Below are positions 3,001-6,000 of a stretch of 12,776 nucleotides of DNA, piece after piece (position 1 is the first letter of the stretch; each line of letters opens with the position of its first letter). The DNA is from a virus. Lineage: Duplodnaviria; Heunggongvirae; Uroviricota; Caudoviricetes. The position numbers were made by a program. Where the stretch lies: IMG/VR virus record IMGVR_UViG_2671180755_000025; one strand, 5' to 3'.

Positions 3001-6000
3001 AAGAGGCAATTATTCATTACCTGGGGACGCATAAGAGCTTCTGTGCACAGGACGTTGCCGCGGTAACAGGTGCAACCGTAACCAGCATAAATCAGGCTGC
3101 GGCTAAAATGGCGCGGGCAGGAATCCTGGTCGTTGATGGTAAGGTCTGGCGAACGGTGTATTACCGGTTCGCTACCAGAGAAGAACGGGAAGGAAAGGTG
3201 AGCACGAATCTGATTTTTAAGGAGTGTCGCCAGAGTGCCGCGATGAAACGGGTATTGAGGGTATATAAAAGAACATCAATGGGTACACAATGATGAAACA
3301 GGTGAGTTGAGTTCAAACTGTAGTACAATTCTCTCCAGTTTGAACAGGAAAGAATATGTTATGAACCCTTATATTTATCTTGGTGGTGCAATACTTGCAG
3401 AGGTCATTGGTACAACCTTAATGAAGTTTTCAGAAGGTTTTACACGGTTATGGCCATCTGTTGGTACAATTATTTGTTATTGTGCATCATTCTGGTTATT
3501 AGCTCAGACGCTGGCTTATATTCCTACAGGGATTGCTTATGCTATCTGGTCAGGAGTCGGTATTGTCCTGATTAGCTTACTATCATGGGGGTTTTTCGGC
3601 CAACGGCTGGACCTGCCAGCCGTTATAGGCATGATGTTGATTTGTGCCGGTGTGTTGGTTATTAATTTATTGTCACGAAGCACACCACATTAAAAATAAT
3701 TTCTTTTAAAAGACTGCAATATGGCGGTTCATATCTTTACATGGGCCGCTTTTGTTAATGTTTTTAGTTTTTGTGTATTCTTTTGTGCCTTCAAGATTAT
3801 TGCGTAAGCAAATTGCAATACGATTATTGTTGTATATTCAAGATAGTGTGATCGTAATTGTCTTTTTAAATAAAAATTAAACAAAAATTATATCTCACCA
3901 CTAAGGTTTATAAAAGCATAAGTTAGCAGGTGTCACCATGAAAAAAGCCATAGCATATATGCGATTTTCATCACCAGGTCAGATGTCTGGCGACTCATTA
4001 AACCGACAGAGAAGACTTATTGCTGAATGGTTAAAGGTAAATAGTGATTATTATCTTGATACCATAACATATGAAGATTTAGGATTAAGTGCATTCAAAG
4101 GAAAGCATGCACAATCAGGAGCTTTTTCGGAATTTTTAGATGCTATAGAGCATGGTTATATATTGCCAGGAACTACATTGTTAGTTGAAAGTCTGGACAG
4201 ACTTTCAAGAGAAAAAGTCGGTGAAGCGATTGAACGTCTGAAATTGATTTTGAATCACGGTATTGATGTTATAACTCTTTGCGACAATACAGTCTATAAT
4301 ATTGACTCTTTGAATGAGCCATATTCATTAATAAAAGCCATACTTATAGCACAAAGGGCAAATGAAGAAAGCGAGATAAAGTCAAGTCGGGTTAAATTAT
4401 CATGGAAGAAAAAACGGCAGGATGCACTGGAATCAGGTACGATTATGACGGCGTCTTGTCCGAGATGGCTCTCCTTAGATGACAAAAGAACGGCTTTTGT
4501 TCCAGACCCCGACAGGGTGAAAACTATTGAGCTAATTTTTAAACTCAGGATGGAAAGGCGCTCATTGAATGCAATAGCCAAGTATTTAAATGATCATGCT
4601 GTAAAGAATTTCTCAGGAAAAGAAAGTGCATGGGGGCCTTCTGTAATTGAAAAATTATTAGCGAATAAAGCTCTGATAGGTATATGCGTACCTTCATATC
4701 GTGCAAGAGGGAAAGGGATAAGTGAAATCGCTGGCTATTATCCCAGAGTCATATCAGATGATTTGTTTTACGCTGTACAGGAAATTCGGTTGGCACCTTT
4801 TGGTATTAGCAATAGTAGCAAGAATCCTATGCTAATAAATCTACTTCGAACAGTTATGAAGTGTGAGGCTTGTGGTAATACCATGATTGTTCATGCGGTA
4901 TCTGGAAGTTTGCATGGCTATTATGTTTGTCCGATGAGAAGATTACATCGATGTGACAGGCCATCAATAAAGAGAGATTTGGTTGATTATAATATCATTA
5001 ATGAATTGCTTTTTAATTGTAGCAAAATTCAACCAGTTGAAAACAAGAAAGATGCTAATGAAACTTTAGAGTTAAAAATTATTGAGCTTCAGATGAAAAT
5101 TAATAATTTAATCGTTGCATTGTCTGTCGCGCCTGAAGTTACCGCTATAGCAGAGAAAATAAGACTATTAGATAAGGAATTACGAAGAGCTTTGGTATCA
5201 TTGAAAACTTTGAAGAGTAAAGGTGTAAATTCATTCAGTGATTTTTATGCTATTGACTTAACCAGTAAAAATGGACGAGAGTTATGCCGTACACTTGCCT
5301 ATAAAATATTCGAAAAAATCATAATTAATACGGATAATAAAACCTGTGATATCTATTTTATGAATGGCATTGTTTTTAAACACTATCCTTTAATGAAAGT
5401 AATATCCGCCCAGCAGGCGATAAGTGCTCTCAAATATATGGTTGATGGTGAGGTTTATTTTTGAGTAATAATCACTTTTTCAACCGTGCTATGGTATGAA
5501 AGTAAAGTAACTACTATGATATTAACTATCGAGCAAGAATATCCCCAGGCACTCAACAGGGCGCAGGTCAACGTGAATCGGTCATGACACGACACCGATT
5601 TTGCGGAATCAATGTTGCTTATGAATACAACATCCCGCTTAGTACATGTTCAACACATCAGCAAATTTTGAACTGGGTGTGGCACTTAACTGAAAAAACA
5701 TGGATGACACAAAATGTTACTCGTCGCTTCATTGAAGTAGCTTGTGGATATCACAAGCTAGACTATCGCCAATGATATTCAATTTTTGATTTTTTAGTAT
5801 CAACCTTCCATAATAATGCCACCGGAGCTTGAACAACTCCGGTGACTTCTGCGCATTTAAGGGGACTTAAATGCGACCACAATCTGAACTCCTTACCTTG
5901 TCACAGATGCAGAAATGCACCTGCGATGTCTTGCATCCAGCGTTTGATCTCTGCGGAGGTGAAGCGTGAACCTCCCACAAGATGGCATCAAATTACATCG

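What the first reader, a model, noticed from the sequence alone, without database searches (positions are those of the whole stretch)
3938..5464. Orphan large serine recombinase with no recognisable cognate site
The protein has the full serine-integrase architecture: catalytic Ser motif (YMRFSSPGQ), recombinase domain, Cys-rich zinc-ribbon-like segment and a heptad-rich C-terminal region. Yet the prophage already has a tyrosine integrase plus excisionase, and I find no strong inverted or direct repeats flanking the island. Its substrate is unknown. It could be a relic integrase, an invertase acting on a distant site, or a recombinase co-opted for another role.
Basis: partly seen in the sequence, partly recalled or inferred. 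Interest (0 to 1): 0.5.

Follow-up and report, generated by a model that had tools for sequence, protein, structure and literature searches.

The report
ybcK: solitary serine recombinase cargo gene
The ORF is ybcK, a long-annotated E. coli prophage gene for an intact large serine recombinase that is kept by strong selection as a stand-alone accessory gene, is not the enzyme that integrates this prophage, and still has no known DNA target.

Summary
Window 3938-5464 (+) encodes a 508-aa large serine recombinase (LSR) with an intact catalytic motif, recombinase domain, four-Cys zinc ribbon and coiled coil. No meaningful repeats flank it. It is ybcK (K-12 b0544), so the gene and its family assignment are already known; its function is not.

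New here:
- It is not the prophage integrase. The same gene (97% identical DNA) sits in prophages at argU (K-12) and icd (this window), each beside its own tyrosine integrase, and in viable lambdoid phages.
- It is not a relic. 86 of 87 sampled E. coli copies are intact, dN/dS is about 0.08 (lowest of six local genes), and catalytic and zinc residues are invariant down to 40% identity.
- It lies in a swappable low-GC cargo block (emrE-ylcJ-ybcK) in the ren-ninB slot, next to a hypervariable sub-slot that carries BstA in some strains.
- Homologues in other Enterobacterales are also solitary cargo: nin region, downstream of tail fibres, or on plasmids. They share no conserved flanks, terminal repeats or adjacent palindromes.
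- A 41%-identical relative, Kp04, has a classical LSR attP.

The substrate remains unknown. Interest is moderate to low.

The parts
3938..5464 (+). ybcK coding sequence: 508-aa large serine recombinase
   Evidence: 100% identical to E. coli O157:H7 ybcK (WP_000709077.1)
3947..4420 (+). N-terminal catalytic (resolvase) domain, aa 4-161; predicted nucleophile Ser11, with R9, D87, R88, R91
   Evidence: Pfam PF00239; invariant columns
4508..4789 (+). Recombinase domain, aa 191-284
   Evidence: Pfam PF07508
4841..5218 (+). Zinc-ribbon domain (aa 302-357; C309, C312, C331, C339) with the coiled-coil insertion (helices aa 346-427)
   Evidence: Pfam PF13408; invariant Cys; AF2 secondary structure
5309..5458 (+). 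C-terminal beta-sheet plus helix (aa 458-507), conserved across the family
3751..3937 (+). ybcK 5' leader. In K-12 it holds an experimentally shown Rho/NusG-dependent terminator. 3801-3937 is less polymorphic than ybcK third codon positions
   Evidence: PMC4150792; pi 0.011-0.026 against 0.043
3758..3880 (+). Small ORF (40 aa) at the position of K-12 ylcJ
   Evidence: RefSeq annotation
3723..3750 (+). Intrinsic-terminator-like hairpin after emrE, which separates emrE from the ybcK unit
3361..3693 (+). emrE (SMR efflux pump), the other gene of the same low-GC cargo block
3267..5530 (+). emrE-ylcJ-ybcK cargo block. The left junction lies in the 3' end of ren. In an isogenic prophage a DUF4041 gene plus the 5' half of an antirepressor-like gene stand in its place
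3311..3345 (.). Palindrome near the left end of the block, upstream of emrE: 13-nt arms, one mismatch, 9-nt spacer. Function unknown
5531..5783 (+). Remnant of the hypervariable sub-slot. The 63-aa ORF (5584-5775) is an N-terminally truncated copy of a 105-aa ORF seen in other strains
5784..5846 (.). Start of the conserved lambdoid nin backbone: a TTGATTTT..AAATCAA palindrome, a promoter-like site and a 12-bp hairpin. It is the common right boundary of all cargo variants
1..1369 (-). Tyrosine integrase (1-1143) and excisionase (1133-1369) next to icd: the prophage's own integration module

Best explanation
The ORF is ybcK, an intact and selectively maintained large serine recombinase. It is carried as a single-gene accessory ('moron'-like) cargo in the variable ren-ninB slot of a DLP12-type lambdoid prophage. 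It does not integrate or excise this prophage; the tyrosine integrase and excisionase at the left end do that.

Shown: it has the full LSR architecture with all catalytic and zinc residues. It is under strong purifying selection. It belongs to an Enterobacterales clade of about 505-520-aa LSRs that always occur alone in accessory positions of prophages and plasmids. It has no recognisable att sites next to the gene.

Inferred: it is catalytically active and works like other LSRs. Dimers would bind two att-type sites of about 40-50 bp, synapse through the coiled coil, cut with a 2-bp stagger through Ser11, rotate subunits and religate. The sites would lie in trans, elsewhere in the phage, the host or another replicon.

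Also inferred: in a lysogen the gene is kept off by the Rho-dependent terminator in its leader. It would be read mainly when antiterminated early-right (pR) transcription passes through the O-P-ren-nin region, that is, during lytic development.
For: - Identity and architecture.
- Not the prophage integrase: 97%-identical ybcK DNA lies in DLP12 at argU with intD and here at icd with an unrelated lambda-type integrase. It also lies mid-genome in viable phages whose integrase is at the genome end.
- Selection: 86 of 87 loci are intact and 50 alleles were found. dN/dS is 0.05-0.08 at dS up to 0.2, against 0.10-0.15 for ren, emrE, ybcN, ybcO and rusA. Diversity by codon position is 0.013 / 0.005 / 0.043.
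- Cargo status: low GC; interchangeable blocks in otherwise 95%-identical prophages.
- Family contexts: nin region (E. coli; L008; L011; L026; L188); downstream of tail-fibre genes (L003, L006, L096, L013/14, L015, L020); plasmids (L093, L184, L185).
- Homology between related loci stops 68-225 bp upstream and 0-56 bp downstream of the gene.
- Silencing: a Rho/NusG-dependent terminator in the ybcK leader (PMC4150792).
- A 41%-identical relative, Kp04, has a classical LSR-type predicted attP and was chosen for testing in PMC10083194; I did not see the assay result.
Against: - No substrate was found, and activity is untested.
- The sampled loci were picked by best protein match, which favours intact copies.
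- Many O157 strains carry IS1203 inside ybcK, so the gene is dispensable there.
- In the window's defective prophage the immunity/N region is deleted, so the proposed antitermination-dependent expression cannot apply to this copy.
- In locus L026 the gene is antisense to the phage early operon.
Confidence: 0.6

Rival explanations
1. YbcK is the integrase of a small nested integrative islet (emrE-ylcJ-ybcK, about 2.3 kb) that inserted into the prophage. Its attL and attR would lie at about 3267 and at about 66-124 bp past the stop codon.
For: The block has sharp boundaries, low GC and an alternative block in an isogenic prophage. The right junction truncates an antirepressor-like gene, and LSRs often integrate inside genes. 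A significant palindrome (3311-3345) lies near the left end.
Against: The two ends share no similarity, core repeat or inverted arms. The 3' flank is the most polymorphic stretch of the region, with pi 0.18-0.35. No precise empty site was found, because the alternative block replaces rather than restores the flanks. In other genera the LSR travels without emrE, and its module ends lack terminal inverted repeats.
Confidence: 0.12
2. It is a decaying relic of an integrase with no present function, intact only through recent common ancestry.
For: The prophage is defective: O is truncated, P is frameshifted and the immunity region is lost. Many O157 strains have IS1203 insertions in ybcK. The gene is silenced by Rho. 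No att sites were found.
Against: dN/dS is about 0.08 with dS up to 0.2, lower than for functional neighbours. Catalytic and zinc residues are invariant across a clade that diverges to 40% identity. The gene is present in viable phages.
Confidence: 0.1
3. Its selected role is not recombination between att sites. It might instead act in superinfection exclusion or defence, or in DNA-damage tolerance, using its DNA-binding or cleavage activity.
For: It sits beside a hypervariable slot that holds BstA (PADLOC E=4e-121) in some strains, and HEPN or DUF4041 genes in ybcK-less prophages. Homologues often neighbour UmuD/UmuC, DinI or SRAP genes. A Keio ybcK deletion lost rifampin-induced ofloxacin persistence, together with recA, recC, recG, ruvA and uvrD mutants (PMC5845583). 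Over-expression raised sabinene tolerance (PMC7181518). Small serine recombinases are known markers of defence islands (PMC13552941).
Against: YbcK has no PADLOC hit. The phenotypes come from screens with no mechanism. Neighbour associations may simply reflect shared accessory slots.
Confidence: 0.13
4. It is a DNA invertase that switches a distant or adjacent segment, such as tail-fibre or pilus-tip genes.
For: Several homologues lie directly after tail-fibre and tail-fibre-assembly genes. One is divergent from a pilV-like gene with a faint Shufflon_N hit.
Against: Those regions hold no inverted repeats of 18 nt or more that would define invertible segments. All 87 E. coli loci are collinear. 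The protein is an LSR, not a Hin/Gin-type small invertase.
Confidence: 0.05

Closest known systems
YbcK of E. coli K-12 (b0544, UniProt P77698), DLP12 prophage 'putative recombinase'
   Same: It is the same gene: 97% identical DNA, the same neighbours emrE and ylcJ upstream, and the same nin backbone downstream.
   Different: K-12 carries ybcL and ybcM in the downstream sub-slot where the window has a 63-aa remnant ORF. The K-12 prophage is at argU with intD; this one is at icd with a different integrase.
Kp04, Klebsiella pneumoniae LSR (WP_117257952.1) listed among tested LSRs in Durrant et al. 2022 (PMC10083194)
   Same: 41% identity over 396 aa, with the same domain order and the same YxRFS..Q..GDS / ESLDR.SR motifs.
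   Different: Kp04 passed a filter requiring the LSR to lie within 500 nt of its element's att site. Its attP has inverted arms of about 20 bp. YbcK lies mid-prophage with no such site. I did not see Kp04's assay result.
Phage large serine integrases (SPbeta SprA, Bxb1, PhiC31, A118/LI)
   Same: The fold and the predicted chemistry. Full-length structural alignment gives Foldseek E values from 3e-19 to 6e-11.
   Different: Those are the sole integrase of their phage, are encoded next to attP, and are paired with a directionality factor. YbcK coexists with a tyrosine integrase and excisionase and has no adjacent att site. Sequence identity is only 15-20%.
SpoIVCA / XisF-type LSRs inside defective prophage-like elements
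   Same: An LSR retained inside a degenerate prophage.
   Different: Those enzymes excise the whole element at its ends. Here the prophage ends are tyrosine-integrase att sites, and they differ between ybcK carriers. The NCBIfam XisF score is 46.9 bits against a cutoff of 375.
Small serine recombinases as markers of defence islands (RADS, PMC13552941)
   Same: A solitary serine recombinase gene next to hypervariable or defence cargo on mobile elements, with an unknown role for the recombinase.
   Different: Those are Hin/Gin-size enzymes. YbcK is a full LSR with a zinc ribbon and a coiled coil.
Lambdoid-phage morons / accessory hot spots (ren-ninB slot, post-tail-fibre region)
   Same: Low GC, its own terminator-bounded unit, presence or absence among otherwise near-identical phages, and neighbours such as BstA, Bor and Lom-like genes.
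   Different: Morons usually encode host-fitness or exclusion factors. A complete site-specific recombinase is an unusual cargo.

Membership tests
Large serine recombinase (LSR) superfamily | N-terminal resolvase-type catalytic domain with a Ser nucleophile and conserved Arg/Asp residues | tested here: met
   PF00239 E=5e-19. S11, R9, D87, R88 and R91 are invariant in 20 sequences.
Large serine recombinase (LSR) superfamily | Recombinase domain followed by a zinc-ribbon domain with four Cys | tested here: met
   PF07508 and PF13408. C309, C312, C331 and C339 are invariant.
Large serine recombinase (LSR) superfamily | Coiled-coil motif inserted in the zinc-ribbon domain | tested here: met
   AF2 helices at aa 346-427. 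The model aligns over its full length to SPbeta, Bxb1 and PhiC31 integrase structures. This is prediction only.
Large serine recombinase (LSR) superfamily | Catalyses recombination between specific att sites | not testable with these tools
   This needs an in vitro or in vivo assay.
Phage/element integrase (the enzyme that integrates the element carrying it) | Gene adjacent to attP or to an element end, with inverted-arm att sites | tested here: not met
   The gene is mid-prophage. There are no att-like repeats or palindromes, and the 3' flank is hypervariable.
Phage/element integrase (the enzyme that integrates the element carrying it) | The integration site tracks the recombinase | tested here: not met
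   The same ybcK is found in prophages at argU and at icd, each with a different tyrosine integrase.
Hin/Gin/Pin DNA invertases | About 190-aa enzyme with a C-terminal HTH, flanking inverted crossover sites, and an invertible segment | tested here: not met
   The protein is a 508-aa LSR. No inverted repeats were found. The loci are collinear.
LSR transposases (TnpX/TndX type) or a self-mobile single-gene element | Defined element ends with related sequences and an empty target site | tested here: not met
   Module ends in three locus pairs show no terminal inverted repeats above shuffled controls. No empty site was found. Homology limits vary from -68 to -225 bp upstream and 0 to +56 bp downstream.
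XisF (NCBIfam NF041201, equivalog) | Score above the curated cutoff | tested here: not met
   46.9 bits against a cutoff of 375.
Known anti-phage defence proteins (PADLOC-DB 2.0) | Match to a defence-system model | tested here: not met
   No hit for YbcK. BstA occurs in the neighbouring sub-slot of other strains.
Lambdoid-phage moron / accessory cargo | Variable presence at a conserved hot spot, atypical composition, own transcriptional boundaries | tested here: met
   An own promoter has not been demonstrated.

The most novel reading that the evidence does not exclude
YbcK-clade enzymes may be a distinct functional class of large serine recombinase. In this reading they are exapted, trans-acting accessory recombinases that temperate phages and plasmids of Enterobacterales carry as single-gene cargo. 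They would be selected for acting on sites in other replicons (competing phages, satellites, the host chromosome) or on a site hidden inside their own coding sequence, rather than for integrating their carrier.
Probability: 0.25. Interest if true: 0.7.

Novelty: already known. Interest (0 to 1): 0.33.

Why it matters
ybcK is one of the remaining y-genes of E. coli K-12 and is present in about a quarter of complete E. coli genomes. LSRs are valued genome-engineering tools. An LSR clade that is strongly conserved yet is never the integrase of its carrier points to an unrecognised biological use of this chemistry, or to an unrecognised kind of target site.

The practical lesson is narrower. Pipelines that assign att sites to any LSR found inside a mobile element can be misled by such cargo LSRs, as appears to have happened for cluster10915 in PMC10083194.

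For this window, the finding is a correct re-identification of an annotated gene whose function is unknown.

Tried and rejected
1. Integron-like cassette capture at a site just 3' of ybcK. The downstream sub-slot has at least 9 variants. However, the junction positions differ (about +66 or about +76-124). The window's junction is a deletion endpoint within a longer variant. Most variants share a truncated antirepressor-like ORF. The 3' flank is not conserved. Rejected.
2. A self-mobile LSR-only element. Homology between loci is confined to the gene and short flanks, with one pair at 94% identity in unrelated contexts. The ends have no inverted repeats, and no empty site was found. Not supported.
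3. An invertase for tail fibres or a shufflon. No inverted repeats were found.
4. A conserved partner gene, such as a directionality factor. Neighbours differ from locus to locus. The 80-aa plus UmuD-like pair recurs in only two loci. A 343-aa tyrosine recombinase recurs only in the Pantoea plasmid subgroup.
5. An apparent E. coli empty site (ylcJ present without ybcK, H166) turned out to be an IS1-associated deletion.
6. The att sites published for a YbcK-family member (cluster10915, PMC10083194). The attB and attP share a 26-bp identical core at a terminator hairpin, and the near-identical protein P0005 lies in a nin region. These most likely belong to the prophage's tyrosine integrase.
7. 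Searches for Kp04 or its attP in viral contigs found nothing.
8. Rfam found no RNA family in the window. A PDB search with the single sequence found nothing; only the family profile reached SPbeta integrase.

Full report
**What the window is.** The window matches E. coli O157:H7 chromosomes at 100% identity. It covers the left part of a lambdoid, DLP12-type prophage inserted next to icd. The gene order is: tyrosine integrase (1-1143, -), excisionase, a 5'-truncated O, a frameshifted P, ren, emrE, a 40-aa ORF, ybcK (3938-5464), a 63-aa ORF, a ylcH-like ORF, ybcN (NinB-like), ninE, ybcO, rusA, ylcG, Q, the lysis genes, bor and terminase. The finding's ORF is therefore ybcK (K-12 b0544, 'putative recombinase YbcK'). 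RefSeq annotates it as 'recombinase family protein', and one phage record already calls it 'Large serine recombinase'. In the literature I could search it is still a gene of unknown function.

**Observation check.**
- Pfam finds the three LSR domains in the canonical order.
- I aligned 20 relatives from Escherichia, Atlantibacter, Yersinia, Pantoea, Erwinia, Kluyvera, Ewingella and Citrobacter, sharing 40-97% identity with the window protein. R9, S11, Q15, D87, R88, R91, Q139/R140 and E143/E144, and the four zinc cysteines, are all invariant.
- An AlphaFold2 model (pLDDT 78) aligns over its full length with the cryo-EM structures of SPbeta integrase, Bxb1 and PhiC31, and with the LI integrase C-terminal domains. 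It shows the long helical hairpin (aa 346-427) that corresponds to the LSR coiled coil.
- By sequence alone only a family profile reaches a solved structure, SPbeta integrase at E=1.5e-5. The clade is therefore distant from the classical enzymes.
- The repeat search confirms that nothing resembling att sites flanks the gene or the low-GC island.

**It is not the prophage's integrase.**
- In K-12 the same gene (97% DNA identity across 3080-5503) lies in DLP12 at argU next to intD.
- Here it lies in a prophage at icd next to an unrelated lambda-type integrase.
- It is also present mid-genome in viable lambdoid phages (PhiR68_2, PhiR34_1, Turner, Perceval and others). In PhiR68_2, the one whose annotated map I read, the tyrosine integrase sits at the genome end.
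- So the integration site follows the tyrosine integrase, not YbcK.

**It is not a relic.**
- I recovered 87 E. coli loci. 86 carry an intact 508-codon ORF, and they represent 50 distinct alleles.
- Pairwise dN/dS is 0.05-0.08 at dS up to 0.2.
- The same calculation gives 0.15 for ren, 0.10 for emrE, 0.13 for ybcN, 0.145 for ybcO and 0.15 for rusA.
- Diversity by codon position is 0.013 / 0.005 / 0.043.
- Caveat: the loci were chosen by best protein match, which favours intact copies.
- Caveat: several O157 records among the best matches carry IS1203 inside ybcK.

**Where it sits.**
- Comparison with related phages defines a cargo slot. It runs from the 3' end of ren (about 3257-3266) to a conserved backbone that starts at 5784. 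The backbone begins with a TTGATTTT..AAATCAA palindrome, a promoter-like site and a 12-bp hairpin, and it is shared with HK639, phi80, phage 82 and others.
- PhiR30_1 has an acyltransferase and a lipoprotein gene in this slot.
- An otherwise 95%-identical E. coli prophage has a DUF4041 gene plus a full-length 202-aa antirepressor-like gene there. In ybcK carriers a 2,331-bp emrE-ylcJ-ybcK block stands in their place and leaves a 107-aa C-terminal stub of that gene.
- The two junctions share no sequence, and there is no core repeat.
- Downstream of ybcK is a hypervariable sub-slot with at least nine variants among the 87 loci: ybcL-ybcM in K-12, an alpha/beta hydrolase, several unknown genes, and the abortive-infection gene BstA (PADLOC E=4e-121).
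- The window's 63-aa ORF is a deletion remnant of one such variant.
- The breakpoints are not at one position, and the 3' flank of ybcK is the most polymorphic stretch of the region (pi 0.18-0.35). I therefore reject an integron-like role for YbcK at this slot.

**Regulation.** An intrinsic-terminator-like hairpin follows emrE (3723-3750). The ybcK leader contains a Rho/NusG-dependent terminator that was shown experimentally in K-12 (PMC4150792). Nucleotides 3801-3937 are more conserved than synonymous sites. The gene has the orientation of the early-right operon, between the replication and nin genes. I infer that it is silent in lysogens and read under antitermination. This is an inference. 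It cannot apply to this defective copy, whose immunity region is deleted.

**The family elsewhere.** Homologues with 40-60% identity over the full length are always solitary.
- Several lie in the nin region of other lambdoid prophages: Pantoea dispersa L008, which also has a tyrosine integrase in view, Atlantibacter L011, Ca. Pantoea alvi L026, and L188.
- Others lie directly after tail-fibre and tail-fibre-assembly genes near a prophage end: L003, L006, L096, L013/14, L015 and L020.
- Others are on Pantoea or Duffyella plasmids, between metabolic genes or in an accessory island. One is divergent from a pilV-like gene.
- Pairs of related loci share only the gene plus 68-225 bp upstream and 0-56 bp downstream. 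One pair is 94% identical in unrelated surroundings.
- These module ends have no terminal inverted repeats above shuffled controls. No palindrome recurs next to the genes. No invertible segments are evident.
- The clade therefore behaves as shuffled single-gene cargo, not as a recognisable transposon, integrative element or invertase system.

**Link to characterised LSRs.**
- The supplementary tables of Durrant et al. 2022 (PMC10083194) contain a YbcK-family representative, cluster10915. It is 66% identical to YbcK and 99% identical to my P0005.
- The attB and attP assigned to it share a 26-bp identical core on a terminator hairpin. P0005 itself sits in a nin region.
- That pattern fits the carrier prophage's tyrosine integrase, so the assignment is probably wrong.
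- Kp04 from Klebsiella pneumoniae is 41% identical to YbcK over 396 aa. It is listed among the LSRs taken to experiment.
- Kp04 passed the filter of lying within 500 nt of its att site, and its attP has inverted arms of about 20 bp.
- I could not see its assay result. Still, a close branch looks like a genuine integrase. This supports the view that YbcK descends from integrases and has kept their chemistry.

**Conclusion.**
- Best-supported reading (confidence about 0.6): YbcK is a functional accessory LSR that does not serve its carrier's integration and acts, if at all, on sites not adjacent to the gene.
- Rivals: a nested emrE-ybcK islet whose att sites I cannot recognise (0.12), a non-recombination role such as defence or damage tolerance (0.13), a relic (0.10), and an invertase (0.05).
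- The entity is already known, and the kind of enzyme is well known. The substrate and the reason for its conservation remain open, so I score interest as moderate to low.

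Noticed in passing
window 1369-3000: The prophage is defective. The excisionase abuts a 5'-truncated O gene, so the whole immunity/N/cro region is missing, and P is frameshifted (ORFs 2294-2800 and 2692-2994).
   Followed up: partly
window 5465-5783, and L101, L103, L119, L153, L165, L167, L168, L002: Immediately downstream of ybcK is a hypervariable sub-slot with at least 9 gene-content variants in E. coli. One variant carries the abortive-infection defence gene BstA. The window's 63-aa ORF is a truncated remnant of a 105-aa ORF.
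   Followed up: yes
window 3311-3345: A palindrome (GTTCAAACTGTAG..CTCCAGTTTGAAC; 13-nt arms, one mismatch, 9-nt spacer) lies between ren and emrE, near the left end of the cargo block. It is conserved among E. coli alleles. It has no T-run, so it is not an obvious terminator. Its function is unknown.
   Followed up: partly
window 5784-5846: A conserved palindrome, a promoter-like site and a strong hairpin mark the start of the nin backbone. The block is shared with HK639, phi80 (annotated IR4) and phage 82 ('possible regulator-binding site'). It is the common right boundary of all cargo variants.
   Followed up: partly
window 4325-4414: About 90 bp of ybcK (codons about 130-159, the E-helix region) show almost no polymorphism among 61 distinct sequences, even at third positions. 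Third-position diversity elsewhere in the gene averages 0.043. This could be chance, recombination history or an embedded DNA or RNA element.
   Followed up: no
E. coli O157 genomes (hits H2-H10, H127): Many O157:H7 strains carry a 1.3-kb IS1203 (IS3-family) insertion that splits ybcK into two annotated CDS. The window's copy is intact.
   Followed up: partly
L003 9092-9684; L096 12207-12772; L012 and L013 flanks; L011 12029-12316; L188 2182-2415: YbcK homologues are repeatedly next to SOS or DNA-damage accessory genes: UmuD-like/UmuC, DinI-like, SRAP. This may only reflect shared accessory slots. A Keio ybcK mutant did group with DNA-repair mutants in a persister screen (PMC5845583).
   Followed up: partly
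L098 8145-11530: In Citrobacter koseri a YbcK homologue is divergently adjacent to a 555-aa pilV-like protein (faint Shufflon_N hit), within a conjugation and type IV pilus region. No inverted repeats were found.
   Followed up: partly
L026 9256-12751: In Ca. Pantoea alvi the LSR module lies antisense between a complete lambda-P-like gene and a pseudogenised partial second copy of P. This suggests that recombination between two phages at P homology brought the module in.
   Followed up: partly
PMC10083194 supplementary file 3, cluster10915: The published attB/attP prediction for a YbcK-family LSR has a 26-bp identical core at a terminator hairpin. The near-identical protein lies mid-prophage in a nin region. 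The att pair probably belongs to the prophage's tyrosine integrase.
   Followed up: partly
L018, L019, L021, L022, L093: In the Pantoea and Enterobacter plasmid subgroup, a 343-aa tyrosine recombinase (62-93% identical among loci) recurs within about 0.2-6 kb of the YbcK homologue, in varying orientation.
   Followed up: no
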